Shown here: in pieces, positions 37,558 to 63,297 of the stretch
Position numbering within the stretch: position 1 is the first letter of the stretch
Layout of the letters: each line of letters starts with the position of its first letter
DNA from: an uncultured delta proteobacterium
Lineage (GTDB): Bacteria > Desulfobacterota > Binatia > UBA9968
Assembly (NCBI GenBank): GCA_963760795.1
Contig: CAVXEP010000030.1
Location: forward strand, 1 to 64,000
DNA length: 64,000 nt
Reading direction: 5' to 3'
Made by a program: the position numbers and the translations under genes
Notes under the pieces: model-generated
Database searches by the model: none
What the model saw: the letters and a program-made list of their open reading frames with translations, nothing else
Told to the model about the DNA's origin: nothing

Positions 37558-38220
37558 ATGAACGACGAATCGAATAACGCGGTCAAAAGCGATTTCATCA
37601 CGGCGCTGCGGATTATCTATCGTGAAGGACTGAGCGACGCCTTCGCCCATTTGAGCGCGCGCAGCAACGACGGCAACGAGATGATGTTCATGCCGCGCAA
37701 GAGTCCGGCCCTGGTGCAACGCGACGAGTTGTTTTTCGTCGACTTCGACAAACCCGTGCCGCAGTCTTCCTTGCACCAGGCGATTTATAAAGCCCGTGCC
37801 GACGTCAAGGCGGTCTTCCATTTTCATTCGCCGGCTGTGGTGCTGCTCAGCGTCATCGGCCAAACCATTCGCCCGATGCACAACTACAGCGCGATTTTTT
37901 ACCAGGGCGTGCCGCTCTACACCGGCACGGGGCAGGTTGAATCGCCGGCCCGGGCCGGGGAAATGGCCAAGTTGCTCGGCGATGCCAAGGCGCTGATGTT
38001 GCGCGGCCACGGCGCCGTCGTCGTCGGCCAGTCGATCCGCGAAGTTTGCATGCTGGGATTGTTTTTAGAAGAGTCGGCGCGGCTGCAAGCCGAAGCGATG
38101 CGGCTCGGCACACCCATGTTCATGGAGCGCGACGAGGCCGAAAAGATCGCCAAACGAACTTTCAAGCCCACTTCCGTGGAACGTGCTTGGGATCACTTCG
38201 CGGTGAAATGCGCGGGGTGA
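37558..38220 (+). CDS. Class II aldolase/adducin-family protein
   Basis: AHLSAR, LHQAIYKARADV, HFHS, LMLRGHG. Confidence 0.9.
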   Translation: MNDESNNAVKSDFITALRIIYREGLSDAFAHLSARSNDGNEMMFMPRKSPALVQRDELFFVDFDKPVPQSSLHQAIYKARADVKAVFHFHSPAVVLLSVIGQTIRPMHNYSAIFYQGVPLYTGTGQVESPARAGEMAKLLGDAKALMLRGHGAVVVGQSIREVCMLGLFLEESARLQAEAMRLGTPMFMERDEAEKIAKRTFKPTSVERAWDHFAVKCAG

Positions 38221-38481
38221 GTTATTTGCGGGAGTTCGTCGGCACTGCGCAAATTAAGCTTGGTGTCCACCCGTGAGGACTCTCTTTGCCGATCCAATCC
38301 TGAGTAAGTGAAGTCCGGCATCCACAAAAAGTCGGGCTGTCAAAGCCTAACCTGGCGCGCTTCCCTTAGCATTCAAAGCGCTTTTTAAAAACACCGCGCA
38401 TAAGCACGATAGCGGTATTTGTCAAGCCACTTGACGCATTAGTGGGCGGTGCTTATTTTCCAACCATCACAAAGGAGGGTC

Positions 38482-38928
38482 ATGAATATGGAACTCGTAA
38501 GATTTGAACCGTTTGCCCGCGTTGGTAACTTTCGCTCTTTAATTTCCGACTTGTTCGAGGATAATTTAGAGCGGTCGTCAGCTCGGCCCAGTGTTCGCCA
38601 GTGGCATCCAGCGGTGGATGTATTGGAGAGCAAGGACGCTTATCTGATTCGCGCAGAGCTTCCTGGAATGAAACGGGAAGACATCAAAGTCGAGGTTAAA
38701 GACGGCAAGCTGGTGCTCAGCGGCGAAACCAAGTCCGAGAAACCGGATGACGGCACTGCGTACCGCCACGTCGAACGGGTCGCGGCAAAGTTCTGGCGCT
38801 CGTTCGCACTGCCCGAGACCGCGAAACCGGATGGCGTCGAAGCTACCTACAAAGACGGCATTCTCGAAATTCGCGTGCCGAAAGCGGAAGAGATCAAACC
38901 GCGGCAAATCGAAATTAACGTGCAGTAA
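38482..38928 (+). CDS. Hsp20/alpha-crystallin protein
   Basis: PAVDVLE, AELPG, F.RSF.LP, ATYKDGILEI; AGGAGG RBS; TTGACG-N17-TATTTT promoter at 38431-38459. Confidence 0.95.
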   Translation: MNMELVRFEPFARVGNFRSLISDLFEDNLERSSARPSVRQWHPAVDVLESKDAYLIRAELPGMKREDIKVEVKDGKLVLSGETKSEKPDDGTAYRHVERVAAKFWRSFALPETAKPDGVEATYKDGILEIRVPKAEEIKPRQIEINVQ

Positions 38929-38947
38929 TTCGCAGTCAAAACCGCAA

Positions 38948-38982
38948 AAAGACAAGGGAGGCGTTTCGCCTCCCTTGTCTTT
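38948..38982 (+). terminator. Intrinsic terminator
   Basis: AAAGACAAGGGAGGCG / CGCCTCCCTTGTCTTT stem. Confidence 0.8.
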
Positions 38983-39145
38983 ACGGCACAATTCCCCGCC
39001 GCTACGCTTCAGCTTCGACCCGACCACAACCCCGCCATCCTGATAGCGTCGTGATCCATCGAACTGTTGCTCGATACGCAGAAGCTCGCTGAGCTGCAAA
39101 AAATTGTTCTGTGATCGTCAGAAATTCGAGTTATGATTAACTCGT

Positions 39146-39658
39146 ATGGATGTCGTTGCTCATGGACTGTGGGGCGGCGCGCTTTTTTATCGGCACGGCC
39201 GCAAGCAGTATTTAGCTGGCGCTGTGCTCGGCATGGCGCCCGATCTATTATCGTTCGGGGTTTTTCACATGACCCAGCCGGGCTGGCTTGCCGAGCGTTT
39301 ACTGGGAAATATCTCCGGACCGCCGGCGCTGGCGTCGCTACCTCCATATGTCTTTCACTCATATAACGTCACTCACAGCTTGATCGTTTGGACGGCGGCC
39401 TTTGGGCTGCTGTGGGCGCTGATCAAGAAACCTCCTTGGCTCCTCACTGCTTGGTTGCTGCATATCGTTTGCGATATTCCCACCCATGTCGCGAGGTATT
39501 TCCCCACGCCATTTCTGTGGCCTTTGCCGACACCCTTCGTCGACGGCGTCCCGTGGTCAACGCCTTGGCTCATGGCGGCCAATTACGCCGCAATGTTCTG
39601 CGTCTATTGCTGGCTTGCCTGGCATTTCCGCAGAACAGGCAGCGGAACTAACGAGTAG
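39146..39658 (+). CDS. Membrane-bound metal-dependent hydrolase (YdjM-like)
   Basis: HGL, APDL, THS, LHIVCDIPTH, P.LWPL. Confidence 0.75.
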   Translation: MDVVAHGLWGGALFYRHGRKQYLAGAVLGMAPDLLSFGVFHMTQPGWLAERLLGNISGPPALASLPPYVFHSYNVTHSLIVWTAAFGLLWALIKKPPWLLTAWLLHIVCDIPTHVARYFPTPFLWPLPTPFVDGVPWSTPWLMAANYAAMFCVYCWLAWHFRRTGSGTNE

Positions 39659-42204: not shown

Positions 42205-42247
42205 CTAGGCGATGCCAAGATGCTGATGCTGCGTGGCCACGGCGCCG
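42205..42247 (+). pseudogene. 43-bp fragment copy of the class II aldolase (LGDAKMLMLRGHGA)
   Basis: Matches 37975-38017; abuts the GNAT stop codon. Confidence 0.75.
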
Positions 42248-43664: not shown

Positions 43665-44261
43665 ATGTCAACCACAACGGAGCGCCCTCTCGCAGATGCG
43701 CTCACCGCAATCAAGTCGCGTCGCTCGGTGAAGGAGTACCTGTCCACCGAGATTCCTCGGGAGTGGATCGAGGAGCTGCTCGACGCCGCCCACTGGGCGC
43801 CCAACCACAAATTGACCCATCCCTGGCGTTTTCACGTGTTCTCCGGAGAGGGGCGCGAGCGATTGGTCGCAGCCCGTCAGGCGTCAGTACGTTGGGCCGC
43901 GGAGAAAAAGGGCGAGCAGGCGAGCGAAGAGGCTCTCAAATTCGCCCGGGATAAGTGTTATTCGTCCCCGGTCCTGATCATCGTTTCCATGGTTGGCGAT
44001 GAGAAAAAAATCACTGACCAGGAGAACTATGCGGCCTGCTGGTGCGCCATTGAGAATCTGCTGGTTGCCGCCAACGCGCGCGGCCTGGGCAGTTATCCCA
44101 GCACGGGCGACTGGATCGACCAAAACTTCGTTGGCCCAGTTCTCGGACTCACAGAAAAAGAACGGCCGGTGGCGTGCATTTTCTTGGGCTACTCCGAGCA
44201 GGCGACCATGGCCAAGCGCCTGCCCGTGGATCGCCATACCACCTGGTACACCCAAGCCTGA
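43665..44261 (+). CDS. Nitroreductase family (YdjA-like)
   Basis: IKSRRSVK, AAHWAPNHKLTHPWRF, AIENLLVAANARGLGS. Confidence 0.92.
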   Translation: MSTTTERPLADALTAIKSRRSVKEYLSTEIPREWIEELLDAAHWAPNHKLTHPWRFHVFSGEGRERLVAARQASVRWAAEKKGEQASEEALKFARDKCYSSPVLIIVSMVGDEKKITDQENYAACWCAIENLLVAANARGLGSYPSTGDWIDQNFVGPVLGLTEKERPVACIFLGYSEQATMAKRLPVDRHTTWYTQA

Positions 44262-44322
44262 AGTTCTCACCCGAGTAACTCAGTAAAATCCGCCTCTTGA
44301 GGCGGCCACAAAACTGCTGACA

Positions 44323-44357
44323 AGAGCAAAGGGGGTCGAACACCCCCCCTTTGCTCT
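44323..44357 (+). terminator. Hairpin/terminator
   Basis: AGAGCAAAGGGGG / CCCCCTTTGCTCT. Confidence 0.6.
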
Positions 44358-44686
44358 CGAGTGGGCTTCACCCCGCTCAACAATCCGTTGATTGAGACCA
44401 GCTCGCCGGAGTTTGTCAAAGCTGAGATCCATGGGTTTCTCGACTTTGTAATCTTCGCGCACGAGTTTCACCGATTGCACCGCGCCTGAGTGCGCTCATG
44501 ATAAGCGGTCGTCTTTTCGTGCATGCGAGACGGTAGCGCCACTCCTGCGCTGCACTGCGCGGGGCGGAAACCGCTAGCCATTTGGTTGATCACGTCATTG
44601 TCCCGGGTCCCGGTACGCCAATGGGTGCTGAAGTTTCCAATATGCAAGATAGTCAGGCTATAAAAGTCTGACTTTGGCTCTTTTCC

Positions 44687-45682
44687 ATGATCGAAGTCGA
44701 CAAACTCACCAAATCCTTCTTCGTCCACAAGAAGGAGGCCGGCCTACTCGGCTCGGTGCGTTCACTATTCAAGCGCGAGAAAATCGAGAAGACCGCGGTG
44801 AGCGAGGTTAGCTTCCGAATCGGCGAGGGGGAAATCGTCGGCCTTGTCGGGGCCAACGGCGCGGGCAAGACGACGCTCGTCAAGATGCTCGCGGGGATCA
44901 TCTTCCCGACTCGCGGCGACGCACGCGTGCTGGGGTATCGGCCGTGGGAGCGGAACGACGACCTGCGGCGACAAATCGCCCTCATCATGGGCCAGAAGGC
45001 ACAACTTTGGTGGGACCTTCCGGCGGCCGATTGCTTTCTGCTGCTGAGGGAAATCTACCGCATCCCAAAGGAGCGCTTCGACGCGACGCTTGGCGAACTC
45101 GTCAAGGTGCTCGACGTGAAAGACCAGCTCAACATCCAGATCCGCCGGCTTTCGCTGGGCGAGCGGATGAAGATGGAGTTGATCGCGGCGCTGCTGCACT
45201 CCCCGCGCGTGGTCTACCTCGACGAGCCAACCATCGGGTTGGACATCACGGCGCAGCGTTCGATCCGCGAGTTCATCCTTCGGTACCAGTCAGAGCGGCG
45301 CCCCGCGATGATACTCACGAGCCATTACATGGAGGACATCGAGCGCCTTTGCCGGCGCATCATGATCATTCGCGACGGGACGATCGTGTACGACGGCAGC
45401 CTGCAGGAAGTCGTGACGGCGTACGCGCAGCACAAGGTCGTGACGGCGCATCTTCCCGAGGGGGCGGAACCGTGGGCGGACCGCGCGGAGTTGGAAAAGC
45501 TAGGCGAGGTGAAGGAGTGCACCGATGGCTCGGTGAAGATCCATGTTCCGCGCGCGAATGTTGCGCAGGCCGCGGCGCGTCTTGTGAATCTCACCAATGC
45601 GCGCGACCTGTCCGTTGAGGAAGAGGACATCGGGACGATCATCGAGTCGATCATGCAGGCGCGCGAGAAGGGACCGCAGTGA
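44687..45682 (+). CDS. ABC-2 transporter ATP-binding protein
   Basis: GANGAGKTT, GQKAQLWWDLP, LSLGERMK, LDEPTIGLD. Confidence 0.95.
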   Translation: MIEVDKLTKSFFVHKKEAGLLGSVRSLFKREKIEKTAVSEVSFRIGEGEIVGLVGANGAGKTTLVKMLAGIIFPTRGDARVLGYRPWERNDDLRRQIALIMGQKAQLWWDLPAADCFLLLREIYRIPKERFDATLGELVKVLDVKDQLNIQIRRLSLGERMKMELIAALLHSPRVVYLDEPTIGLDITAQRSIREFILRYQSERRPAMILTSHYMEDIERLCRRIMIIRDGTIVYDGSLQEVVTAYAQHKVVTAHLPEGAEPWADRAELEKLGEVKECTDGSVKIHVPRANVAQAAARLVNLTNARDLSVEEEDIGTIIESIMQAREKGPQ

Positions 45683-47273: not shown

Positions 47274-47296
47274 GAATGGCAGCAGGGGCAGCGTTG

Positions 47297-47792
47297 CCAG
47301 CACGGACGACTGGATCGACCAAAACTTCGTCGGCTCAATTCTGGGACTCACAAAGAAAGAGCGGCCGGTGGCTTGAATTTTCTTGGGCTACTCCGAGCCG
47401 GCGACCATGGCCAAGCGCCTGCCCGTGGATCGCCATACCACCTGGTACACCGAGGCTTGAAATTCTCACCTGAGTAAAATGGGGCCACCGTGCCGGAGTT
47501 TGTCCGAGCCGAGTTCGATGTCTTTCTCGAATTCGGAGTCGTCGCGCACGAGTTTCTCCGACTGCGCCGCAACTGGGGTATCAGACTGTGTCGCGATACC
47601 GTTCATGGTTCGAGAACCTCACCACGAACGGTATTGCTGAGTCGTGAATTAAAATACTTATCCGTTCGCCCTGAGCTACCGTCGAAGGGCTCCGAGATAT
47701 TGCCAGACACTGTGGTGCGCGGCGCAGGGCGGAAACCGCCGCCCACTTGCTTGATCACGTCATCCCCTGGTCCCGGTGCGCCAATGGGTGCT
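47297..47792 (+). repeat. Degenerate direct repeat of 44098-44630 (nitroreductase 3' end plus downstream DNA)
   Basis: 47297-47477 matches 44098-44278; 47492-47577 matches 44405-44490; about 47725-47792 matches 44560-44629. Confidence 0.9.
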
Positions 47793-53320: not shown

Positions 53321-53484
53321 AAAGCAACTATAGACTCTTGCCGATTCACGCTGTTGCCGGGACGCATAAAGAGCAAGCTCGAAAATTAAAAATTTCACGA
53401 TTCAAGACTGCTCAATTCGACAGTCAACAGCGGACTCATGCAACGGTCAGGCAACCCACAGTCGGTGACGGCATCGGAATCGCC

Positions 53485-54333: not shown

Positions 54334-54376
54334 GCCATTAAGAACGGCAGGTTTTTCAACGCGAGGAGGAAATAAT
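54334..54376 (+). pseudogene. 3'-end remnant of the alpha/beta-hydrolase (carries the RBS of the next gene)
   Basis: AIKNGRFFNARRK* versus AIKNGTFFNARRK* (52184-52225). Confidence 0.8.
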
Positions 54377-54380
54377 CATC

Positions 54381-55283: not shown

Positions 55284-55566
55284 GGATTGTGGAGTTGAAT
55301 TCACAGCGGCAGTGGGTAATGAACAAAACAAGTAGCTGGAAAGTCTAGAAGTAGATTGCTATGTCACCCCCCCGACGTCTCCGCGCCGAACTGGCAATTT
55401 CGTTTAACATTGCTCGGAGGGCTGGTGATTTTGTTGGGAATCATTGCTTGACGGGGGGTCTTGTGACTTGTGCCCGGGTCGCAAAAAAAAGCGTGATTTT
55501 AATTGACATGCTCGCACAGAGCGATTAAGAATAAGCGGTAAGAATTAGAACTGGGAGGAGAAAAAC

Positions 55567-56112
55567 GTGAGAAATAAAAGCATATCGTTGTTGGTTTGGA
55601 TCGGGTTGATTTTTGCTCTCTTAGTGCCGCTTTCGGTCGCAGCCCAGGAGCCCGCGCCCGAACAACGAAACGGCAAGTGGACGGCGGGCGCCGATATTGG
55701 CGTGATTTTCGCGACCGCCGACGATGAGATATTTGGCATGAACTATTACGGTGACTATTACTTCAATCAGAATGTTTCCATCGGGCCGCTTCTCCAATTC
55801 GGATTCTCTGGGGACCTCTTCCAGTTCGGTCCCAGCGCGCAGCTAAAATATACCATGGACATCGACAACCGCTGGAAGGCCCATGCTCAGGTCGGACTTG
55901 GGTTTATCTATGCCAACTTGAGACGCCCCGGTTCAAATAATAATCAGGATGACACGAGTATCCTGATGCCAATCGGAGGCGGTATAGAATACAAATTTAC
56001 CGACAGACTTTCGGCCGGCGGCACGGTGATTGCGAACATCATGGATCTCAATAGCGTTCGCGGCGAAAACTTTAGCCTCTCGTTTCTCGGCGGCATAAAA
56101 TGGCGTTTTTAA
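55567..56112 (+). CDS. Outer-membrane beta-barrel protein (small, 8-strand type)
   Basis: Signal peptide, alternating aromatic beta-strands, C-terminal KWRF; GGAGG RBS. Confidence 0.8.
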   Translation: MRNKSISLLVWIGLIFALLVPLSVAAQEPAPEQRNGKWTAGADIGVIFATADDEIFGMNYYGDYYFNQNVSIGPLLQFGFSGDLFQFGPSAQLKYTMDIDNRWKAHAQVGLGFIYANLRRPGSNNNQDDTSILMPIGGGIEYKFTDRLSAGGTVIANIMDLNSVRGENFSLSFLGGIKWRF

Positions 56113-56124
56113 CGCGACGAGGTA

Positions 56125-56153
56125 AAATCCGGCGGGACCAGCCCGCCGGATTT
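56125..56153 (+). terminator. Intrinsic terminator
   Basis: AAATCCGGCGGG / CCCGCCGGATTT stem. Confidence 0.7.
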
Positions 56154-56479
56154 GCTTTCGCCTCGCGGGTCGGCGACGAATCAGCGCTCGAAGGTTGTAG
56201 CGAGATATCAACATCGGCGGCATCAGATCTTTAAAGTATTGACCGCCGTCATCGTACGCGCTGTTGAACTGTGCGGGTGGTGAACCAGGCACGGCCACGA
56301 CCGCCGTTTTGCCTCACCACAATACAGCGTCGGCTTGTCCGTCAAACCCGGGCTACCTCAACCTGACCTCTTTTCTTTTCGCCTTGGCGAACGGCAATCA
56401 TCGGCTCAGCGAGCTGGGCCACAGCTTTCCAACCCCAAGAAACCACTGACTCTATCCCGACCACGCAGTGACCGGAAGC

Positions 56480-56659
56480 GGCTCGCGGAATGGCGGAACT
56501 TCCGCGTGCGAGGAACTCGAAGATGCGGGTCAGCACGAGCTGACGATCTGGTGCGCGCTTGCCGGCGCCATGTCTGACCTGGGCATGAAGCCGGAAGTTA
56601 TCGACTTCGTTGAGACTTTCACGCTGAACACTGATTCGTGCTTCGCGGTCTTCAGCTGA
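56480..56659 (+). pseudogene. C-terminal remnant resembling a LigB-type extradiol dioxygenase
   Basis: LEDAGQHELTIWCALAGAMSDLGMKPEVIDFVETFTLNTDSCFAVF*; no intact parent in the window. Confidence 0.55.
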
Positions 56660-56794
56660 GCCCCTTCCCTACCGCTTATTGTCGCCGGCCGTGCTTTGGA
56701 GTAGCCCGCAATGACTGTTCCAAAGTATTCCATAAAAAAGTCTTAGTCAGAAGCAAAACTGAAGTTTGTCCTGTTTGTTTTCCCTCCAGCCAAT

Positions 56795-57391
56795 TCAAGG
56801 CCGCGCACCGGACACAGCAATCTTTGGACGGAACGGATGAAAGCTAAATTCGATTTCCCCCGCGCTCTGGTTGTCGTTGCGTTTCTGCCTGGTGATCTGG
56901 ACCGTGGCAAATTTGGGCTGAGCAGCGTTGATGAGATACACACTCATCTGGGTTAAATGCCGGTTCTCGAGCGTGAGCCTGTGGGGGCCGGCCGCGAGCG
57001 AGCTGGAGATTGCGGAGAATCCTATCTGAATTGTTCCCGCACCCGTGCGGAGTTCTGCAGGCGGGACGAATTCAGACGCGCTGAGCTGCAATTCTAACTT
57101 GCGCCCGTCTACACGGAGCGTGAGATCGCCCTTCAGCAACTTGGCATAGACTGCCGCTTCGCTCTTGGATATCGCGCCGTCGCGGTCGCGGTCAATCTGG
57201 GCGATCACCTGTTCAGCGACAGCCACGCCCGGCGTAAGGTTGATTTGCAGCCGGACGCCGCCCGGTTCGATGGCCACAAGTGTCGCTTGCAGATACTGGT
57301 CGTCCCGATGCGCGAAAACCCCGGACGGAACCGCAAGCAACGCGAGCAGCAGCAGCAGGTGGCAGAGTGTCCTGGTCACGGCTTGCGCCAT
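56795..57391 (-). CDS. Exported hypothetical protein (mature N-terminal His; related to HupE/UreJ- or NixA-associated domains)
   Basis: VFA-HRDDQYLQAT...LTPGVAVA...IDRDRDGAISKSE...YLINA. Confidence 0.65.
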   Translation of the reverse strand: MAQAVTRTLCHLLLLLALLAVPSGVFAHRDDQYLQATLVAIEPGGVRLQINLTPGVAVAEQVIAQIDRDRDGAISKSEAAVYAKLLKGDLTLRVDGRKLELQLSASEFVPPAELRTGAGTIQIGFSAISSSLAAGPHRLTLENRHLTQMSVYLINAAQPKFATVQITRQKRNDNQSAGEIEFSFHPFRPKIAVSGARP

Positions 57392-58399
57392 TTAATTCCG
57401 TAATCGTTGGTAGGATCGCGGTAAATCGTGTGGATGTGCTTTGTCGCGTCGCCGCCCAGGCGCTGTGGAGCGTATTCGATGATTACCGTCGGCCCTTGGA
57501 TGCGGAAATAAGCCGCGCTGCCTTTTTCACTTGGGCCGCTCCAAGCGAACCAGGTTTCGGCGATATTCTTTTTCATCTCGTCCATTTTCGTTTTCGCGGC
57601 AGCTTCGTGCATGATGCCGGTCCATTCGCTGGCGAGATCCAGCAACATCTGACGCTGCTTCTCGGTCAGGGCCGAGGCTTTGACCCCTTCAGGCTGAATC
57701 GTCTGCCCGTCACGGCCGGGCCCGAGTACCAGGTCGCGCATCTGGAAGTCAAGGATAGCCTGCTTGCGTTGCGCTTCGTTCAGCGAACTAAGCAGGGCAA
57801 ACGCCTTGTCCGTCTCGCGACCAAGGGGGCGCACCGTTTTGCCTTCGAGTTCGTAAATCGCCGGTTGCGCGCCGGTGTGGCTGGGCGCGAGTGTGCGTTG
57901 GTCGCCGGCAAGCGTGACGTTGAGGCCGAGATGGTGGCCGCCGAACTGAATCATCCACGGCTCGGTGGTGGAAGGCTGGCCGAGGAACGAGAGATAATAT
58001 TCTTCGCGCCCAAAAATCGCCTCGCCGCTCGATTTTCTCAACAACTCGTCGGCCTCGACAATCTGCAGAATTTTAACGTAGCCCTGCGGACTCAAGGCCG
58101 CTGCCAACACCGCCAGCGCCGCCTCGCGCTGGGGTTTTGTCAGGTCGCCCATGCGCAACCCCTGCCGTTTGAAGATTGCCGTCGGAAGATTCGACCAGCG
58201 CTTGCGTTGCGCTTCGTCTTTGAATTCAAAGACGACCTTGCCACGCTGGGCATCATCAAGCGTGGCGAGGAATTTTTTGCGTGGCTGCGACGATACCCGC
58301 GGTCGGCGCGCCGGGTGTAGAGTTCGTCTGGGCAAAGCTGTTGAGCGCAACGCCAGCGCCAAATAACAGAATCAAAACCAGCGCAATCTTTTTGTTCAT
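57376..58399 (-). pseudogene. DUF3500-family exported protein, +1 frameshift in an A6 run at 58273-58278
   Basis: MNKKIALVLILLFGAGVALNSFA signal peptide joins KFLATLDDAQR...WSNLP...QFGGHHLGLN...YFRIQGP...HIHTIYRDPTNDYG if one A is removed. Confidence 0.8.
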
Positions 58400-58686
58400 G
58401 GTTAAATTGAAACTTAGTCCCGGCCACGGGGCTTTAGATTATAGTAAGGTTTCCGCATTCGTTATAAACGATCCGCTTGACGCCATTGGCGCTGAAGCGT
58501 TTGGATTCCAGTCGACGGATTTGTCGGCTGAACGAGTGGGACCAGCCTTAACACTCGTTTACCCACACATTTAACGAATTCGTAGAACGTTAAGATTACA
58601 AGTCCAGACCCCAATTACGATTACGTATTTGTGCCTACAGTTGCCATCATTCCTGCCATGCCGGCTTTTCGTCGTTGAACTAACTT

Positions 58687-59850
58687 TTATTGAATGCCCG
58701 GTCGTCCGGCGTAGCGCGCCGTCACCGCCTTCACGCGCGGATCGCCGGCGACCGCGAGCCGCCCGCGGTCATGCAACACGTTGCTGCCGACCTTGAACGT
58801 CGCGCCGCGCGCTTCCGCCGCCGTGTGCAGATTGAACGGAAACGAAGCACTCTTGCCCGCCTGCCCGAGGTGCATGTGCACCGCACCGGTGTGGAACGAG
58901 GCGACGAATTCGCGATATTCCTCATCCGGGCACTGCGCGGGTGACACGATCGCGTGCGGATGCACGCCGCCGTGAGGTCCCCGGATTTCGAACGCGTTCT
59001 TCTCCCCGACGCGCCGCGCGAGAGCTTCGAGGAATCCACAAATGGCTGTCGCTTCCGCGCCTCCCTCGATCTTCGTCATCTGATTGTCTTCAACCGAGAT
59101 GCGCACCGGCGCAGAGAAACGAACCGGCACCCCGATCTCTTTCGCCCAGACCGGCATCATCTGATCGAACACATAGATGCCGGTCGTCCCGACAGGATTC
59201 ACCGCCGGATAGATGCCGTCCGGGAACGGACGATAGTAACCGTCGCGACGCCAGTAGGCGTAGCCTTCGCCGCCACGCCCCGGCGACCCGACCTTGCCTT
59301 CCAGATGTGTGCCGTTGGGATGGTTTAGACTCCATGTTTCGTCTGGCTTGATCAGTTCCGCCATGCGGTAGCGGATCTCGGCGATGAGATCGTGCGGCGT
59401 GCGCGCCCAGTCGCTCATAATTAGACCCGTCGTGGTCGCCATATTGCGGACCATCGGCAGCTTCAGCTCCTTGAGAAGCTCCGGAAATTCCTTGAGGTGT
59501 TCTTCGGACGAGAGATCGCTGATGTGATTGATCAGCAGATCGGCGCCCCTCATCGCCGCCTTGACGATCGGCGGAATCTTCCAGGCCGTCTCCGGCGTCG
59601 GAATATCCGGCCAGATCACATTCGGCCGGCTCGGCATGTCCACCCATAGCACGCTGGGATGCGCGCCGCGCGCCTGCACTCCCGACTGAATCCATGCGAT
59701 TGTCTGTTCGTCAACGAGATTGCGGCCGCCGTGCAGGCCATCGACCGCCGCGAGAATCAGCACGTTCTGGCCCGGCTTCACAACCGCGCAACAATCCAGC
59801 ATATCGTTGATCGCGACTGCGGCGTCCGCCGGCATGTAAGCGATGGACAT
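58687..59850 (-). CDS. Peptidase M29 / NicX-like fold protein (tentative)
   Basis: VKPGQNVLIL N-terminus; PVRISVEDNQMTKIEGGAEA; His-rich GPHGGVHP, HMHLG, LHT. Confidence 0.6.
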   Translation of the reverse strand: MSIAYMPADAAVAINDMLDCCAVVKPGQNVLILAAVDGLHGGRNLVDEQTIAWIQSGVQARGAHPSVLWVDMPSRPNVIWPDIPTPETAWKIPPIVKAAMRGADLLINHISDLSSEEHLKEFPELLKELKLPMVRNMATTTGLIMSDWARTPHDLIAEIRYRMAELIKPDETWSLNHPNGTHLEGKVGSPGRGGEGYAYWRRDGYYRPFPDGIYPAVNPVGTTGIYVFDQMMPVWAKEIGVPVRFSAPVRISVEDNQMTKIEGGAEATAICGFLEALARRVGEKNAFEIRGPHGGVHPHAIVSPAQCPDEEYREFVASFHTGAVHMHLGQAGKSASFPFNLHTAAEARGATFKVGSNVLHDRGRLAVAGDPRVKAVTARYAGRPGIQ

Positions 59851-59875
59851 GGCATTCCTCCCGAAACTGTTGGCG

Positions 59876-60634
59876 CTATCTGGCGCGCAGTCTTCCTGTT
59901 GTTGCGCCGCCGTCGAGAACGAGCGTCGCGCCTGTCATATATCGTCCGGCGTTTGACGCGAGAAAGGCGACCATTTCGGCCACATCACTTGGCTTGCCGT
60001 GGTAGCCCATCGGAATGTTTGGCGCCTCCGCTTCAGGATCGGCCCCGGCTCGATGACGGATCGATCCGGGTGCGATGCAATTGACAGTGATCCCGTAGCG
60101 ACCGACTTCGAGTGACAGGGCGCGCGTCAGCATGGCCACTGCCGCTTTCGAAGCCGCATAGGCGGCGCCGGCCGCGTAAGGCGATACGCCACTGACTGAG
60201 CCGATGTTGACGATCGTGCCATAGCTCTGCTGCCGCATCGCCGGAATGGCCGCGCGGCAACAGAGCATCGTCCCGTCGACGTTCACCCGGAAGGTCTCTC
60301 GCCACGTGTCAAGCTTGTGCGTCTCGATCGTCTCCAGCGGATGATAGGCCGCGTTGTTGCACAGAAGATCGAGCGAGCCGAAGGCCTGCAAGGCGGCGTC
60401 GACGGCCGACGCCGCGCCCCGCTCGGAACCGATGTCGGCTTCGACGACCCGGACGCGATCGCCGAATTCCGCCAGCGCAGTCCGCGCACTTGCACAGGCC
60501 TGCGCATCGCGATCGACGGCGACGACTGAGCCGCCGAGCGCGAGAAAATGGCGGACGATCCCAAGTCCTATCCCCGACGCGCCACCCGTGACGACGCTCG
60601 AGCGCGGATGATCTGGAAGCTCGGCCCTACGCAT
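59876..60634 (-). CDS. Short-chain dehydrogenase/reductase
   Basis: TGGASGIG, NNAA, YAASK, VNCIAPG. Confidence 0.95.
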   Translation of the reverse strand: MRRAELPDHPRSSVVTGGASGIGLGIVRHFLALGGSVVAVDRDAQACASARTALAEFGDRVRVVEADIGSERGAASAVDAALQAFGSLDLLCNNAAYHPLETIETHKLDTWRETFRVNVDGTMLCCRAAIPAMRQQSYGTIVNIGSVSGVSPYAAGAAYAASKAAVAMLTRALSLEVGRYGITVNCIAPGSIRHRAGADPEAEAPNIPMGYHGKPSDVAEMVAFLASNAGRYMTGATLVLDGGATTGRLRAR

Positions 60635-60640
60635 AGGCGG

Positions 60641-61420
60641 TTAGCTCAGCCGCGGCTGCGGCCACTTGAATCGGCCATCGAGGGTGGGCGGGGTGAGGCC
60701 AGACGCCTCGTAGGCCCACACGCCGATCTGGTCAGACCAGATGCGGTTGACCGCCTGGCGATCGCGGATCGCCTGCAGGCAGGCGTCCTGCGTCTCCTTC
60801 GTGTCGGCGTACTTGGCCAGAATTTCGAGCGGCGCGTCGCCGTGACCGCCGTCGGACGAATCCGCCTCGTCGGCCGCATCCCAGTGTGCCAGAGCCTTGT
60901 CGTCAAGCTTCAGCTTGTCCCAGTTTTCGCGAGACGTGCGGGCGCGATCGCCGACCCGCTTGATCATCGCCTTGCCGCGGGCGACCTCGTTGCCAGCGAT
61001 GCTCGCGAAGGCTTCGAGCCAGGGGCGATAGCGGCTCACATATTCGCAATAGGTGATGCGCATCTTGGTGATCGGCGCGCCCTGATAGTTGTAGATGTAG
61101 TCGCGATCGAGGCCGAGCGCGACCGCGAAGTCGACCAGGCTTTCGTAATGGCCGGTGATGATCGTCGGATCGCGCACTTCCTCCACGAAGGCATTTTCGA
61201 TCAGATACTGCCGCACTTCGAGGATCGGGCAGTTGCCGGTGATGTTGGCCAGCCAGCGCGGAAAGTTCGCGGCGAACACGCAATGTTCGAGCGCGTAGAC
61301 GCGCGCTCCTTCGCGCGTCATGTGATCGGCGTTGTAGGTTTCGAGCAGGGTCGGCACGGTCCACCGCCCTTCCTCCAATACATCGAGAATGGCTTCCTTG
61401 AGCTGCTCTGCGCTACGCAT
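60641..61420 (-). CDS. Heme-oxygenase-like (TenA/PqqC/CADD-type) iron redox enzyme
   Basis: FPRWLA..CP, LIENAFVEE...GHYE, GNE, HW..ADEAD..GH; helical character. Confidence 0.75.
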   Translation of the reverse strand: MRSAEQLKEAILDVLEEGRWTVPTLLETYNADHMTREGARVYALEHCVFAANFPRWLANITGNCPILEVRQYLIENAFVEEVRDPTIITGHYESLVDFAVALGLDRDYIYNYQGAPITKMRITYCEYVSRYRPWLEAFASIAGNEVARGKAMIKRVGDRARTSRENWDKLKLDDKALAHWDAADEADSSDGGHGDAPLEILAKYADTKETQDACLQAIRDRQAVNRIWSDQIGVWAYEASGLTPPTLDGRFKWPQPRLS

Positions 61421-61474
61421 ATAGCTTCCTCCTGGTAGGTACGCGCTGATTTCAAAAAATGACTCGTTATCGCA

Positions 61475-62464
61475 TCAGCGCAGGCCGAAACTTTTGCGGA
61501 AATCTTCCGGGTCCATTTCATCGCTGCTGACGTGCAGTGGAAACAAATCGAGATTCTTTGCATCGAGCCGTTTAGCAGAGGGCAGTACGTCGCCGCGAGT
61601 GGGAACGCGGCCCATCGACTTAAGAATTTCCGATCCCTCTTTGGATAACACCAGATCGACAAATAGATTAGCCGCATTGGGATTCATGGGACGCGCCGCC
61701 AAGGCAATGGAGATCGGCGCTGCGACCATCGGTTTAAGCGAGACCCAGTCAACTGGCGCTCCACGCGTTCTTAGACGCTCGACGAGATGCGCATAAGTGA
61801 TCGCGACGGGGAATTCCCCGGCCGCAAGCAAGTTGGCGATCAATACGTTGCCGTCGCGCAAGGCCAACTTCTGCCGATTGAGTCTGCGCATGAAATCGCC
61901 GCCCTTCTGACTGCCCCATGCGGTCATCATACCGAAGTACCAATCGTACGAACGCGGATCGAGCGTAATCTTGCCATCACTCCACCTGGGATCGAGCAGA
62001 TCGTCCCACCCGGCCGGAACTTCCGACGGCCGGACGCGTTGGCTGTTGTAAGCAATCGTGTAGTAGTTGTTGTAGATGTCGACCCAGCGACTTTGTTTGT
62101 CTCTGAATTTGTCCGGGTAGGCGGCCAACTCGGAAGACAATATCGTCCCCAACAAACCCCGCTTTTGCAGCAAGAGAAGATCGGAAACTTTCCCTGACAC
62201 CACATCGAAAAGAAAACGCCCGGCACGGCTCTCGGTCAAGATGCGGTTCAGTAGCGGCGCGCTGCCGGCGCGGAAGAAGCTCGCGTCGACAAACGGATAG
62301 CGGCTGCGATACAATTCGATCAGCTTAGTCGAATCCTCCGGCTGCATCGCCGTATAAAGAACAAACTTACCCTCTTTTTTGGCGCCGTCGATGGCCGCAT
62401 TCTGGCTTGCTGCGAGGGATAGACCGGGAAAAAGCAGGGAAACAATTATGATTAGAGATATCAA
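61475..62464 (-). CDS. ABC substrate-binding protein (Fe/polyamine/thiamine class)
   Basis: Signal peptide, AKKEGKFVLY, AYNS, WDDLLDPRW, PNAANLFVD; likely TTG start at 62464. Confidence 0.88.
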   Translation of the reverse strand: MISLIIIVSLLFPGLSLAASQNAAIDGAKKEGKFVLYTAMQPEDSTKLIELYRSRYPFVDASFFRAGSAPLLNRILTESRAGRFLFDVVSGKVSDLLLLQKRGLLGTILSSELAAYPDKFRDKQSRWVDIYNNYYTIAYNSQRVRPSEVPAGWDDLLDPRWSDGKITLDPRSYDWYFGMMTAWGSQKGGDFMRRLNRQKLALRDGNVLIANLLAAGEFPVAITYAHLVERLRTRGAPVDWVSLKPMVAAPISIALAARPMNPNAANLFVDLVLSKEGSEILKSMGRVPTRGDVLPSAKRLDAKNLDLFPLHVSSDEMDPEDFRKSFGLR

Positions 62465-62469
62465 TGTCT

Positions 62470-62818
62470 TACCCCACCTTCCAGTGGACTGCTCTGATGC
62501 TGTAGCCTCTACCTTGAATGAAATAGATGTAAGTTTCCCGGTGAGTGTGTCCAACGCTGGCCTGCGAGTGCGGCGTAATCTCCCCAATCGCAGTGTTCGA
62601 AGGGTAATTTCAAATCCCATTCGAAAGTCGGTCAAATTGGCGACTTTCACTCCCCCTTCGATCGTTTTCCATTGCAGCTCGCCTGCGTGCATCCTGATGC
62701 GTGATTCGTTCTTGCCGTCGATAATCTCTTTTTACAGATCGAGCGCTTCCGGCGCACGCGACGTAACAACCCGATCCTCGGTTGACTAGAATTCGCCCTT
62801 TCGCATTGGAATACCCAT
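62470..62818 (-). pseudogene. Cupin-domain pseudogene
   Basis: RBS and ATG at 62818, two in-frame stops, then a shifted frame EITPHSQASVGHTHRETYIYFIQGRGYS (cupin HxHxE motif). Confidence 0.65.
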
Positions 62819-63106
62819 GATTATTTTCTCCTAGTGTTGACCGCTGTTATGGATAGGATTTTAAACCGCCTTTTATTTCTATGGTCGGAACCTTATTGCA
62901 CGACCGGGAGAATTGTCAATTCGTTGTCTACTTGACGAAAAACCCACTGTTGTACCGGTCGGCTCGCCCGGAGAGCGGTTGGGACACGCAGAAAGGTTCC
63001 ATATGAAGTCTTACGTTGGTAGGGGGCACCAGTAGCGTCAAGCCTTTACTTTAAAGAAACTACGAACCCTACTATAAGCTAAAGACCTCGACCCTATAAA
63101 AGCCCT

Positions 63107-63297
63107 CCGATCTCGTCCAGCACCCGTAACTGGTGGCCAATCGCATCATCACGTTCGCTGAAATCGTCGGCCAAGAAAACGTTAGCGCCGGCACCGAGTG
63201 CGGCCTAGGCGGACACGCACACCCGTAGATCGCGTGGGCGAAGTTACGTGTCCTGCGCGGCGGCGCGGCGATCGCGAGCAGGAAGCTGTGGAGTTGA
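63107..63297 (+). pseudogene. 3'-end remnant of the MetE-like gene
   Basis: 191-bp colinear copy of 48966-49156 ending SRKLWS*, with two in-frame stops. Confidence 0.92.

What the first reader, a model, noticed from the sequence alone, without database searches (positions are those of the whole stretch)
37975..63297. Nested cassette accretion marked by displaced 3'-end copies of anchor genes, with no integrase in the window
Seen: the layout [intact gene]-[cargo]-[degenerate same-strand copy of that gene's 3' part] occurs five times. The cases are aldolase (37975/42205, an internal 3'-half fragment), nitroreductase (44098/47297), MetE-like (48966/63107) and GST twice (49869/51009/53194). A hydrolase tail is also duplicated (52184/54334). 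The MetE, GST no. 1, nitroreductase and hydrolase copies run through the parent stop codon, none contains a 5' end, and the GST pairs are nested inside the MetE pair. Known: Campbell-type integration that restores a target's 3' end displaces the old tail downstream of the cargo, normally at tRNAs and via an integrase. Inference: ordinary enzyme genes are being used repeatedly as landing pads, either by homology-driven capture of circular DNA or by a recombinase acting in trans. That would be a gene-capture array without attC sites.
Basis: partly seen in the sequence, partly recalled or inferred. Interest (0 to 1): 0.8.

Follow-up and report, generated by a model that had tools for sequence, protein, structure and literature searches.

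The report
Integrase-free gene insertions marked by displaced gene tails
In this uncultured soil bacterium, blocks of ordinary genes have repeatedly been spliced in just behind resident genes, each leaving a decaying spare copy of that gene's end, with no integrase involved; the scar type is known, but it is unusually frequent and one-sided here.

Summary
The aldolase match is a weak 43-nt internal fragment. The "hydrolase tail" is the edge of a 960-nt whole-gene duplication.

Relatives in the genus carry empty sites for the ABC-transporter cargo, the cytochrome-c-peroxidase cargo and the whole GST-to-unknown-gene block. Independent metagenome contigs bridge the ABC/tail junction, so it is not an assembly artefact.

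There is no tyrosine-recombinase hit on the 243-kb contig and no serine recombinase hit in the genome. The junctions share no motif, and no exact core sits at a fixed position. Tails of one anchor are cut at different points.

Genome-wide, 26 same-strand downstream 3' tails stand against 4 mirror-image 5' fragments.

The MetE tail comes from another allele lineage than its intact gene. One tail boundary is a deletion joint inside an IS remnant. One pair elsewhere in the genome shows a 4-nt microhomology joint.

Best reading: homology-anchored insertion with long target duplication (one homologous exchange plus one illegitimate joint), then deletional erosion. This is a known scar type (Furuta 2010; Jackson 2009), and earlier notes of this scan report it in at least 8 other genomes. 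A dedicated capture system is not shown.

The parts
43665..44261 (+). Nitroreductase gene, anchor 1 (intact)
   Evidence: Pfam PF00881, E=7.8e-28. The 3' 192 nt are 95.8% identical to the G019 orthologue.
44087..44629 (+). Repeat unit copy 1: last 175 nt of the nitroreductase gene plus about 370 nt of downstream flank
   Evidence: Self-blastn, three collinear pieces. This flank is only about 65-73% identical to the G019 intergenic region.
44687..47273 (+). Cargo 1: complete three-gene ABC-2 transporter operon (ATPase 44687-45682, permeases 45679-46488 and 46485-47273)
   Evidence: Pfam PF00005 and PF06182 twice. Absent between nitroreductase and MetE in G019 and G013. 0 of 30 other genus genomes have a nucleotide match. 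Contigs bridge both ends.
47286..47792 (+). Repeat unit copy 2: nitroreductase tail (residues 142-198, one in-frame TGA) plus flank. It starts 13 nt after the cargo's last stop codon.
   Evidence: In L127 and L128 the tail-side flank is longer, so the window carries a deletion of about 112 nt here.
47582..47697 (.). Multi-copy repeat of about 113 nt (REP/MITE-like) between the tail and MetE
   Evidence: Many copies in genus genomes, for example at least 9 in G023 at 90%. Copies on C1, C3 and C29 of G000.
47948..49156 (+). MetE-like (Meth_synt_2) gene, anchor 2 (intact). The longest ORF starts at 47747.
   Evidence: Pfam PF01717. 93% identical to G019.
49356..50000 (+). Glutathione S-transferase gene, anchor 3 (intact)
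   Evidence: Pfam GST_N and GST_C.
50138..50862 (+). Cargo 2: di-haem cytochrome c peroxidase (CCP/MauG). The ORF starts at 49975.
   Evidence: Pfam PF03150. Absent at this site in G019, G013 and G022, where GST runs straight into 51008+. Homologues lie elsewhere in G018 and G007, with no GST beside them.
50921..51008 (+). Left-end remnant of an IS1182/IS5-like insertion sequence, cut at about IS position 95 and joined to GST codon 196
   Evidence: 92-96% identical to four full 1.86-kb copies. The transposase has DDE_Tnp_1_6 plus DUF772. The joint is shown.
51008..51068 (+). GST tail 1 (residues 196-213 plus stop), followed by the native downstream flank
   Evidence: The flank after it matches the G019 sequence after its GST stop.
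51254..53142 (+). Alpha/beta hydrolase (51254-52225) and unknown 303-aa gene A (52231-53142)
   Evidence: Pfam. Follow GST directly in G019, G013 and G022.
53194..53328 (+). GST tail 2 (residues 178-211), old: 73% identical to the parent. It lies 157 nt upstream of the likely Sel1 start.
   Evidence: Shared with G019 and G022, absent at the first G013 locus. A signal peptide begins at ORF residue 111.
53485..54309 (+). Sel1-repeat protein gene, with internal 108-nt repeats. The longest ORF starts at 53155.
   Evidence: Pfam PF08238, E=1.7e-57. Repeats.
54334..55283 (+). Hydrolase tail (42 nt plus spacer) and unknown gene B, a tandem paralogue of 52184-53143
   Evidence: 80% over 960 nt; 68% amino-acid identity. 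G014:C9 has a full hydrolase at the matching place.
55287..55357 (+). MetE mini-tail (TTGTGGAGTTGA, the last three codons plus the stop) and the native MetE downstream flank
   Evidence: Matches the sequence after the intact MetE in G014 and after an 84-nt MetE tail in G013.
55358..63103 (.). Cargo block B: OMP beta-barrel 55567-56112 (+); EF-hand-like 56795-57391, DUF3500 57376-58362, unknown 58687-59850, SDR 59876-60634, haem-oxygenase-like 60641-61420 and solute-binding protein 61475-62692 (all -)
   Evidence: Pfam. Not at this position in G019 or G022. Window 58.7-62.5 kb lies on other contigs of G019 and G013 at 95% identity.
63104..63297 (+). MetE tail (residues 407-469, with in-frame TAA and TAG), from a G014/G017-like allele. 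A convergent FGE-sulfatase gene follows.
   Evidence: At 18 of the 34 sites that differ from the parent, the tail's base also occurs in other relatives' alleles. 87-88% identical to G017 and G014 against 82% to its own parent. Downstream gene.
42205..42247 (+). Aldolase-like 43-nt fragment (weak; internal residues 140-164 of the gene at 37558-38220)
   Evidence: 38 of 43 identical. tblastn E=0.002. No empty-site evidence.

Best explanation
The region 43-64 kb is a hypervariable chromosomal zone of an uncultured soil bacterium. Record titles of the close relatives read 'Candidatus Binatia bacterium' and 'uncultured delta proteobacterium'. Blocks of ordinary genes have been inserted one after another directly behind resident genes (nitroreductase, MetE-like, GST).

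Each insertion is flanked by a long direct duplication of the anchor gene's 3' end. This is 'insertion with long target duplication', also called 3'-end displacement.

The most likely mechanism needs no site-specific recombinase:
1. DNA from another lineage of the genus carries a copy of the anchor's 3' part next to cargo.
2. It recombines with the resident anchor by general (RecA-type) homologous recombination on one side.
3. Its other junction, cargo end to anchor interior, is an illegitimate microhomology joint. That joint forms either when a circular intermediate closes (Campbell-type insertion) or at integration of a linear fragment (homology-facilitated illegitimate recombination).
4. 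The intact gene stays functional, and the redundant 5'-truncated copy is left downstream of the cargo.
5. That copy then decays by point mutation and is shortened by deletions.

The 3' bias arises because insertions behind a gene keep the gene joined to its promoter, whereas the mirror event separates them and is purged.

Shown: the duplications, the empty-site alleles, the foreign allele lineage of the MetE tail (and, by few sites, the nitroreductase tail), erosion by deletion, the absence of integrase, core and motif, and the genome-wide asymmetry.
Inferred: RecA dependence, circular against linear substrate, and selection as the cause of the bias.
For: 1. Empty sites.
- In G019 and G013, nitroreductase is followed 94-96 nt later by MetE.
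- In G019, G013 and G022, GST runs directly into the flank that follows tail 1.
- In G014, MetE runs directly into the flank now at 55299-55357. In G013 the same flank follows an 84-nt MetE tail behind GST-hydrolase-unknown.
- Of 7 further genome-wide pairs tested in 5 relatives, 3 have a clean empty site: C21 in G013, C30:188k in G019 and C20b in G019. At 4 pairs (C21 in G019, C13, C30:188k in G013 and C20a), a relative holds other DNA of a different length at the same spot; two pairs fall in both groups.

2. No recombinase, no fixed site.
- 0 of 14 PF00589 hits lie on contig C30. By inspection, none lies in any of the 26 cargos.
- PF00239 has no hit in the genome.
- MetE tails measure 12, 102, 123, 157 and 194 nt in G000 and 84 nt in G013.
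- The longest exact match sits at relative positions 0.15-0.95 in the 26 pairs.
- No hexamer occurs at more than 4 of 27 junctions.

3. Different lineages.
- The MetE tail is 87-88% identical to the G017 and G014 alleles but 82% to its own parent, which is 93% identical to G019.
- The nitroreductase tail ends ...ACCGAGGC like G013, G002 and G044 (G022 shares only the GAG codon), whereas the parent and G019 have CAA/CAG there.

4. Circular-permutation logic. The parent's coding end is native (95.8% to G019) but its flank is diverged (65-73%). The tail is less native (90.6%) but its flank matches G019 better (81.6%). This is as expected for one crossover near the stop codon.

5. Illegitimate joints and erosion.
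- GST tail 1 begins at a joint with IS position about 95.
- In the C29:436k pair, G019 has parent plus cargo continuing into other DNA, and homology stops exactly at the tail start. Cargo-continuation and anchor share the 4 nt TCGG there.
- The MetE tail at one orthologous spot is 84 nt in G013 and 12 nt in G000.
- The window has a deletion of about 112 nt in the tail-side flank relative to L127 and L128.

6. Genome-wide pattern.
- 26 local same-strand downstream 3' tails against 4 upstream 5' fragments, p=3e-5.
- Similarity stops at the stop codon in 22 of 26 pairs.
- The next gene after the tail is convergent in 13 of 26 pairs, against a 26% baseline, p=0.008. This fits insertion at the ends of transcription units.

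7. Real DNA. Logan contigs X2 record 10 and X1 record 4 run 84 nt past the 47286 junction. Metagenome contigs L127 and L128 cross it.
Against: - No circular junction and no donor genome with the ABC operon next to a nitroreductase gene was found. The next-best full-length ABC permease relatives are at most 58% identical in amino acids (two partial matches reach 63-64%).
- In the three clean empty-site pairs outside the window, parent end and tail are equally distant from the empty allele: 96.5/97.2, 88.8/88.9 and 77.1/77.7%. Lineage of origin is unresolved there.
- The microhomology joint is a single case of 4 nt.
- The mismatch-clustering test for recombination patches is modest: 6 of 26 pairs at p<0.05, Fisher p=0.0017. 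Uneven selective constraint could produce the same result.
- Selection as the cause of the 3' bias is untested.
- The census rests on my own crude ORF calls in a MAG (88.9% complete, 6.2% contaminated) and was not run on a control genome.
- Precise loss by recombination between the repeats would also create 'empty sites', so the polarity of each event is inferred.
Confidence: 0.55

Rival explanations
1. The scars are attL/attR-type remnants of integrative elements that target the 3' ends of protein genes and supply a substitute end, as e14 and phage 21 do in icd or ICE/CIME accretion does at fda. The integrase would act in trans or would have been lost.
For: The layout is what Campbell-type site-specific integration leaves: intact gene, cargo, then a same-strand 3' tail that runs to the stop. 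A 3' preference is classical for such elements (recalled knowledge). The genome holds 14 PF00589 hits elsewhere.
Against: No PF00589 hit lies on the 243-kb contig that carries at least 9 pairs, and none lies in any of the 26 cargos. Tails of one anchor start at different points. No exact core sits at the 5' edge of the repeats. The junctions share no motif. At least 20 different anchor genes would need many integrases. One boundary is a joint inside an IS, and one is a 4-nt microhomology joint.
Confidence: 0.12
2. In-place tandem duplication or older tandem paralogues were followed by random deletional decay. The tails are the last remnants of full second copies, and nothing was imported.
For: The hydrolase-tail/unknown-gene pair is a 960-nt tandem duplication. 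G014:C9 still has a full hydrolase where G000 has a 42-nt tail, and G013:C31:204 kb has only a tail of about 140 nt of the unknown gene. Erosion by deletion is directly seen.
Against: Tandem duplication predicts equal numbers of 5' fragments upstream; the count is 26 against 4. It also predicts a second copy of the cargo behind the tail, but parent-side and tail-side flanks are unlike in 22 of 26 pairs. The MetE tail belongs to another allele lineage than its parent. The ABC cargo is in 0 of 30 other genus genomes. Retention of the tail as a promoter for the next gene is contradicted: only 13 of 26 tails are followed by a same-strand gene, against a 74% baseline.
Confidence: 0.15
3. Assembly artefact: strain variants of a metagenome were collapsed into a chimeric contig.
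For: The genome is a MAG with 6.15% contamination.
Against: Contigs of independent runs bridge the cargo/tail junction at 47286, the parent-stop/flank junction and the GST/CCP junction. Two metagenome contigs from another collection hold the ABC/tail junction at 96.5-98% identity. GST tail 2, the hydrolase tail and both unknown-gene copies are present in the same order in G019 and G022.
Confidence: 0.03

Closest known systems
Insertion with long target duplication (Nobusato et al. 2000, cited in Furuta, Abe and Kobayashi 2010, NAR 38:2428, PMC2853133; passages read)
   Same: The inserted block is under 20 kb. It is present in one genome and absent in a relative. It is flanked by direct repeats longer than 30 bp and of variable length, both of which align to one target sequence. 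No mobility gene is present. Some of their repeats overlap the 3' end of a gene.
   Different: Their cases are restriction-modification gene complexes, and they propose a selfish RM life cycle. Here the cargo is transporters, a peroxidase, hydrolases and unknown genes. The repeats are 73-90% identical rather than nearly identical. They are serial or nested. A genome-wide 3' bias is measured here.
[quoted passage not shown] 2009, BMC Genomics 10:584, PMC2935791; passages read), and T6SS effector-immunity arrays (Kirchberger et al. 2017, Sci Rep 7:45133, PMC5361080; passages read)
   Same: An intact gene is followed by same-strand strings of dissociated 3' fragments with genes in between. There is no integrase. 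The proposed mechanisms are the two considered here: an episomal circle plus homologous recombination, or homology-facilitated illegitimate recombination.
   Different: Those loci are polymorphic-toxin genes, where each displaced tip is a different toxin domain with its immunity gene, kept by selection. Here the anchors are housekeeping-type enzymes, the tails are homologous up to the stop and decaying, and the cargo is unrelated to the anchor.
Homology-facilitated illegitimate recombination (de Vries and Wackernagel 2002; Prudhomme et al. 2002; Meier and Wackernagel 2003; known to me through passages in PMC2884548 and PMC5361080, and the abstract listing of PMC3240628)
   Same: One homologous anchor plus one microhomology joint, with foreign DNA added next to a conserved gene. 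The C29 pair has a 4-nt joint.
   Different: It has been shown experimentally only in transformable or conjugating laboratory species. As I recall (from no call), it usually comes with loss of recipient DNA rather than duplication. Competence of this organism is unknown.
Prophage e14 / phage 21 in the icd 3' end, and ICE/CIME accretion at fda in Streptococcus thermophilus (recalled, from no call; e14/icd is also named in the earlier scan notes)
   Same: A substitute 3' end keeps the gene intact, and the displaced tail lies behind the element. Tandem accretion occurs.
   Different: Those use a tyrosine integrase and a fixed core site. Both features were tested here and not met.
Integron or CALIN cassette arrays
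   Same: Serial, mostly co-oriented cassettes are added behind a fixed point. The gene just upstream of the tail is same-strand in 23 of 26 pairs.
   Different: No IntI-type gene lies on the contig. No shared junction motif or attC-like repeat was found. The boundaries are gene tails, and they differ from site to site.

Membership tests
Insertion with long target duplication (criteria of Furuta 2010) | The insert is present in one genome and absent in a related genome whose flanks align (an indel) | tested here: met
   ABC cargo: G019 and G013. CCP cargo: G019, G013 and G022. The GST-to-unknown-gene-B block: G014.
Insertion with long target duplication (criteria of Furuta 2010) | Direct repeats longer than 30 bp flank the insert, and both align to the single target sequence of the empty genome | tested here: met
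   192 nt (unit about 540 nt) for nitroreductase and 61 nt for GST. Both copies align to the single G019 sequence.
Insertion with long target duplication (criteria of Furuta 2010) | The insert is shorter than 20 kb, with no integrase or transposase gene in or beside it | tested here: inconclusive
   The inserts measure 3.0, 1.0, 6.1 and 7.7 kb. No PF00589 or PF00239 hit. The CCP insert, however, ends in an 88-nt IS remnant. Only five mobility families were searched genome-wide.
Insertion with long target duplication (criteria of Furuta 2010) | The cargo contains restriction and modification genes (their screening criterion) | tested here: not met
   Pfam shows ABC transporter, CCP, hydrolase, Sel1, SDR, SBP and others.
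3'-end displacement arrays of polymorphic toxin loci (rhs, T6SS effector-immunity) | An intact gene is followed by same-strand dissociated 3' fragments | tested here: met
   MetE has 3 tails in the window and 3 more on the contig.
3'-end displacement arrays of polymorphic toxin loci (rhs, T6SS effector-immunity) | Each fragment carries a distinct toxin tip with a cognate immunity gene | tested here: not met
   The tails are homologous to the parent up to the stop. No toxin or immunity family was found among the cargo.
Integrase-mediated island in a gene's 3' end (e14/icd type) | A tyrosine or serine recombinase gene lies in or next to the element | tested here: not met
   0 of 14 PF00589 hits lie on contig C30. 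PF00239 has no hit in the genome; the control genomes gave hits.
Integrase-mediated island in a gene's 3' end (e14/icd type) | A short identical core lies at a fixed position, the 5' edge of the repeat, in all copies | tested here: not met
   Truncation points vary for MetE and GST. The longest exact match lies anywhere from 0.15 to 0.95 of the repeat.
Integron / CALIN | attC-type sites, or any shared motif, at the cassette boundaries | tested here: not met
   No hexamer occurs in more than 4 of 27 junction windows. No Rfam hit in the window. I did not check whether Rfam holds an attC model.
Homology-facilitated illegitimate recombination | A microhomology of a few nucleotides at the non-homologous joint, seen by comparing donor, recipient and product | tested here: inconclusive
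   One of one pair where a donor-like arrangement was available shows TCGG. Donors for the window's own cargos were not found.
Homology-facilitated illegitimate recombination | Dependence on RecA and on DNA uptake or conjugation | not testable with these tools
   The organism is uncultured.

The most novel reading that the evidence does not exclude
Cargo blocks tagged with the 3' end of a conserved host gene behave as self-propagating, integrase-free cassettes. Recombination between the tail and the intact gene loops them out as circles. After transfer, they re-enter the same gene of another genome of the genus by RecA-type recombination and push older cassettes outward. On this reading, homology-driven accretion at gene ends is a main route of gene gain in these soil bacteria, and perhaps in many uncultured lineages, given the similar scars this scan noted in at least 8 other genomes.
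Probability: 0.25. Interest if true: 0.8.

Novelty: new variant of a known kind. Interest (0 to 1): 0.55.

Why it matters
How genes without any mobility function get into chromosomal hotspots is a long-standing gap. Most models invoke integrases, transposases or double crossovers in flanking core genes.

Here one genome offers at least 27 integrase-free insertions that carry their own molecular record: a long target duplication, an allele lineage and a joint. Congeneric genomes preserve the empty, filled and eroded states of the same sites.

That makes three things measurable by comparative genomics alone: the share of one-ended homologous recombination in gene gain, its polarity relative to genes, and the decay rate of the scars. 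It also gives a simple signature, a same-strand downstream 3' tail, for finding such insertions in metagenome-assembled genomes.

If it is only generic recombination debris, the value is a well-documented example and a caution against reading every displaced gene tail as an integrase site.

Tried and rejected
1. The first crude genome-wide count (185 unique 3' loci against 183 unique 5' loci) was dominated by multi-copy repeats that overlap ORF ends. I replaced it with counts restricted to parents with few fragments and to local hits.
2. The idea that the tail is kept because it holds the next gene's promoter is rejected. Only 13 of 26 tails are followed by a same-strand gene, against a 74% baseline.
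3. Integrase beyond the window: none on the contig. Serine recombinase: none. Y2 (IS91) transposase: no hit, but the control genomes were silent too, so this is uninformative. Y1 transposases lie only on C9, C25 and C16.
4. No tRNA and no Rfam family in the window.
5. Read laying on 4 runs listed no joint that skips the cargo (an empty-site form) and no circle junction. These are contigs, which cannot show absence. X1 record 8 reaches only 26 nt past the 51008 junction, short of the 31 nt needed to count as bridging.
6. I tried to map the right joint of cargo block B with G013:C10, G011:C142 and G015:C436. Homology fades at 62939, 165 nt before the tail, so no joint could be read.
7. Donor search for the ABC operon: 0 of 30 genus genomes. 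Of 80 metagenome loci, 2 are the same strain type and the rest are at most 58% identical over the full length; two partial matches reach 63-64%.
8. Which copy is native could not be resolved in three empty-site pairs, because the distances are equal.
9. Two pairs, C13 and C30:128k, gave no empty site in the 5 relatives searched.
10. The supplementary tables of Furuta 2010 and Jackson 2009 could not be seen. They may list non-RM or non-rhs examples that bear on novelty.

Full report
WHAT IS THERE

The window is the first 64 kb of contig C30 (242,818 bp) of a 6.58-Mb, 35-contig metagenome-assembled genome, 88.9% complete and 6.15% contaminated. The closest loci in public genomes carry the titles 'MAG: uncultured delta proteobacterium' and 'MAG: Candidatus Binatia bacterium'.

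tblastn of my ORF translations shows that each copy covers only the C-terminal part of its parent:
- nitroreductase, residues 142-198 of 198;
- MetE-like, residues 407-469 of 469;
- GST, residues 178-211 and 196-213 of 214.

The aldolase match is 43 nt, internal (residues 140-164 of 220), with E=0.002. I treat it as weak.

The 'hydrolase tail' is the leading 42 nt of a 960-nt, 80% duplication that contains a whole 300-aa gene of unknown family.

The nitroreductase repeat continues beyond the stop codon in two further collinear pieces, so the duplicated unit is 44087-44629 / 47286-47792.

Pfam finds ordinary functions throughout and no recombinase. The cargo between nitroreductase and its tail is a complete ABC-2 transporter operon whose last stop codon lies 13 nt before the tail.

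1. Window 50921-51008 is the first 88 nt of a 1.86-kb IS1182/IS5-like insertion sequence that has four full copies at 99.7-100% identity. It is cut at about IS position 95 and joined directly to GST codon 196.
2. Right after the second unknown gene, at 55287-55298, lie the last three codons and the stop of MetE (TTGTGGAGTTGA), followed by the flank that follows the intact MetE gene in G014.
3. Three more same-strand MetE tails lie further along the contig, at 100.6, 107.5 and 121.8 kb.

COMPARISON WITH RELATIVES

The closest relative, G019, is 88-97% identical over shared DNA and is collinear over most of the region. It differs from the window as follows:
- It lacks the Usp gene (window 40721-41361).
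- It lacks the ABC cargo with its tail: 96 nt stand where the window has 3,305.
- It lacks the peroxidase cargo: its GST runs straight into the sequence that follows tail 1.

G013 shows the same two empty sites, and G022 shows the second one.

G014 has MetE followed directly by the flank now at 55299-55357. That is an empty site for the whole GST-to-unknown-gene block. G013 has MetE, 3.2 kb of other DNA, GST, hydrolase, the unknown gene, then an 84-nt MetE tail and that same flank.

GST tail 2, Sel1, the hydrolase tail and the second unknown gene are shared with G019 and G022, so that event is older.

G014:C9 carries a full hydrolase where the window has only the 42-nt tail. A second G013 locus has only about 140 nt of the unknown gene behind Sel1.

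G005, G017, G018 and G010 have the order GST then MetE.

The ABC operon has no nucleotide match in any of the 30 other genomes of the genus searched, one of which, G004, is unpublished. Among 80 metagenome loci, only two same-type contigs (97% amino-acid identity) and distant relatives were found; the distant ones are at most 58% identical over the full length, with two partial matches at 63-64%.

IS IT REAL DNA?

Contigs built independently from public soil runs cover the region at about 99% identity and cross the junctions:
- X2 record 10 (44855-47370) and X1 record 4 (46873-47370) run 84 nt past the cargo/tail joint at 47286.
- X1 record 2 crosses from the parent-side flank into the operon.
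- X5 record 17 crosses the nitroreductase stop.
- X1 record 7 crosses the GST/peroxidase boundary.

The best holders may include the source sample, so these runs are not all independent. Two metagenome contigs from another collection, L127 and L128, also hold the ABC/tail joint. They carry a longer tail-side flank than the window, which therefore has a later deletion of about 112 nt there. A chimeric assembly is very unlikely.

IS A SITE-SPECIFIC RECOMBINASE INVOLVED?

- Of 14 hits to the tyrosine-recombinase family in the genome, none lies on contig C30. The serine-recombinase family has no hit at all, while the control genomes gave hits.
- Y1 transposases lie on other contigs. The Y2 search was uninformative because its controls were silent.
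- The window has no tRNA gene and no Rfam match.
- Tails of the same anchor begin at different points. MetE tails measure 12, 102, 123, 157 and 194 nt in this genome and 84 nt in G013. GST tails measure 61 and 135 nt in the window and 81 nt in G019.
- In 26 genome-wide pairs, the longest exact match lies anywhere between 0.15 and 0.95 of the repeat length.
- No hexamer is shared by more than 4 of 27 junction windows.

This argues against a fixed att core or an attC-like site.

GENOME-WIDE CENSUS

I called 5,010 ORFs with a codon-usage score trained on long ORFs and compared them with the whole genome by blastn. Fragments were kept if they:
- spanned at most half of the parent and at least 60 nt;
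- came from a parent with at most 6 such fragments;
- lay on the same contig within 20 kb.

Dropped before counting: full-length paralogues, parents with many fragments (repeat families, and MetE with its many tails), and hits on other contigs.

| Fragment class (same strand) | Downstream of parent | Upstream of parent |
|---|---|---|
| Reaches the parent's 3' end | 26 | 2 |
| Reaches the parent's 5' end | 3 | 4 |
| Internal, intergenic | 18 | 8 |

The mirror comparison, 26 against 4, gives p=3e-5. A stricter version that required the fragment to lie outside called genes gave 27 against 1.

Further features of the 26 pairs:
- In 22 of 26, similarity does not extend into the 60 nt that begin 6 nt after the stop. 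In 0 of 26 does it extend upstream of the tail.
- The gene upstream of the tail is co-oriented in 23 of 26, against a 74% baseline (p=0.06).
- The gene downstream is convergent in 13 of 26, against a 26% baseline (p=0.008).

This last result speaks against the idea that tails survive as promoters of the next gene. It fits insertion at the ends of transcription units.

These counts rest on my own gene calls in one MAG. I ran no control genome.

EMPTY SITES ELSEWHERE IN THE GENOME

I searched seven further pairs in five relatives (G019, G013, G022, G017, G018):
- Three have a clean empty site. C21 in G013. C30:188k in G019, where 189 nt stand for 3,571. C20b in G019, where 123 nt stand for 1,329. 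In each, the tail-side flank, not the parent-side flank, matches the empty allele.
- At C21 (G019), C13 (G013), C30:188k (G013: 11.3 kb) and C20a (G019), a relative holds other DNA of a different length at the same spot. C21 and C30:188k therefore appear in both lists.
- C30:128k gave nothing.

In the C29:436k pair, G019 has the parent and the cargo, continuing into unrelated DNA. Homology with G000 stops exactly at the tail's first base. The G019 continuation and the anchor sequence share TCGG at that point, which is a microhomology joint.

WHERE DO THE TAILS COME FROM?

The MetE tail differs from its parent at 34 sites. At 18 of these, both states occur among relatives' alleles. Over a long stretch the tail reads like the G014 and G017 alleles, while the parent reads like G019. 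Thirteen further changes are unique to the tail and include two stop codons. So the tail is not a recent copy of the gene beside it.

For nitroreductase the evidence is thinner: 5 shared, 10 tail-unique and 3 parent-unique sites. The parent's coding end is 95.8% identical to G019 and its flank only 65-73%. The tail is 90.6% identical and its flank 81.6%. That is the pattern expected from one crossover near the stop codon between a resident gene and an incoming 'tail-flank-cargo' molecule.

In the three other empty-site pairs, parent end and tail are equally distant from the empty allele, so this point is not general.

Mismatches between parent and tail are clustered more than chance in 6 of 26 pairs (Fisher p=0.0017). 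This is compatible with recombination patches, but also with uneven constraint.

MECHANISM

What is shown:
- long, variable target duplications at gene 3' ends;
- insertion/absence polymorphism in the genus;
- imported cargo;
- the foreign allele lineage of the MetE tail (and, by few sites, the nitroreductase tail);
- illegitimate joints;
- progressive shortening of tails by deletion;
- no recombinase signature.

What I infer: one general homologous exchange in the anchor plus one illegitimate joint, either through a circular intermediate or as one-ended integration of a linear fragment. I also infer that selection removes the mirror events, because those separate a gene from its promoter.

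I cannot separate circle from linear. The circularly permuted order at the nitroreductase site favours a circle, and the C29 joint fits either. Tandem duplication explains the hydrolase/unknown-gene pair and contributes full second copies in some relatives, but it does not explain the asymmetry, the foreign tails or the unique cargo.

WHAT IS KNOWN

- Furuta, Abe and Kobayashi (2010, PMC2853133; passages read) define 'insertion with long target duplication'. It was first described by Nobusato et al. 2000, which I know only from their citation. They describe it for restriction-modification genes in several phyla: no mobility genes, repeats longer than 30 bp of variable length, and some repeats overlapping gene 3' ends. 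This lead came from an earlier scan note (e1-3931854).
- Jackson et al. (2009, PMC2935791; passages read) explain strings of dissociated rhs 3' fragments by excision of an episomal circle and its re-insertion by homologous recombination.
- Kirchberger et al. (2017, PMC5361080; passages read) propose homology-facilitated illegitimate recombination for orphan immunity arrays.
- Touzain et al. (2010, PMC2884548; passages read) argue that illegitimate recombination assisted by homology shapes much small-scale diversity.

My literature searches used the phrases 'homology-facilitated illegitimate recombination' (71 papers), 'C-terminal displacement' (84), 'long target duplication' (32) and a four-term combination (12). 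In the listings and passages I read, I saw no genome-wide census of 3' against 5' fragments and no case with ordinary enzyme genes as serial anchors. I did not read those papers in full, and supplements were closed.

Earlier notes of this scan report the same scar type, without an integrase, in at least 8 other genomes. Those are unchecked AI notes, not independent evidence.

VERDICT

It is best filed as a frequent, serial and strongly polar variant of a known integrase-free insertion scar, not as a new dedicated capture machine.

Noticed in passing
window 1396-6679 (- strand): Segmental duplication. Two Crp/Fnr-type regulator genes (1396-2076 and 5996-6679) are 84% identical in amino acids. 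Two 94-aa ORFs (2180-2464 and 5186-5470) are 98% identical. A 5' fragment of the regulator (49 aa, 88%) lies at 4620-4766, and an iron permease gene lies between. This is one of the few 5'-fragment cases in the genome.
   Followed up: partly
window 20944-25020 (- strand): Single-module NRPS (condensation, adenylation, carrier and thioesterase domains; 1358 aa) with a low codon-usage score (0.07 per codon in my scoring).
   Followed up: no
window 40721-41361: A clean 640-bp single-gene indel (universal stress protein gene), absent in G019. It is bounded by short RBS-like direct repeats (CGGAGG..AAT) rather than by a gene tail.
   Followed up: partly
window 47582-47697; also 43567-43636, 62876-62984 and 63365-63512: Short intergenic repeats of 70-150 nt with copies elsewhere in the genome. 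For 47582-47697 there are many copies across the genus (at least 9 in G023 at 90%). They may be REP/MITE-like. Y1 (RAYT/IS200-type) transposase genes lie on C9, C25 and C16.
   Followed up: no
G000:C30:154778-156939: A full IS1182/IS5-like copy (154870-156703) is flanked on one side by the 3' tail of the gene at C30:158853-160076, and on the other by a 3' fragment (94.7%) of the Y1-transposase-bearing gene at C9:1021-2049.
   Followed up: no
window 58707-62499: This segment (unknown 387-aa gene, SDR, haem-oxygenase-like, solute-binding protein) is 95% identical to G019:C15 and G013:C10. That is more than the 84-93% of the surrounding DNA, and it sits on other contigs there, which suggests recent exchange within the genus.
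   Followed up: no
G000:C30:100641-100742, 107494-107616, 121817-121973: Three more same-strand MetE tails lie 51-73 kb downstream of the intact gene. They fall into two types by their downstream flanks. A 44%-identical MetE paralogue lies on the opposite strand at 99182-100414.
   Followed up: partly
window 53155-53484: The longest Sel1 ORF reads GST tail 2 in frame as an N-terminal extension. A signal peptide starts at ORF residue 111, so the real start is probably 53485.
   Followed up: partly
L032 (G005), L030 (G018), L019 (G017): In these relatives GST lies upstream of MetE, the reverse of the order in G000, G019, G022 and G013. This circular-permutation-like difference is unexplained.
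   Followed up: no
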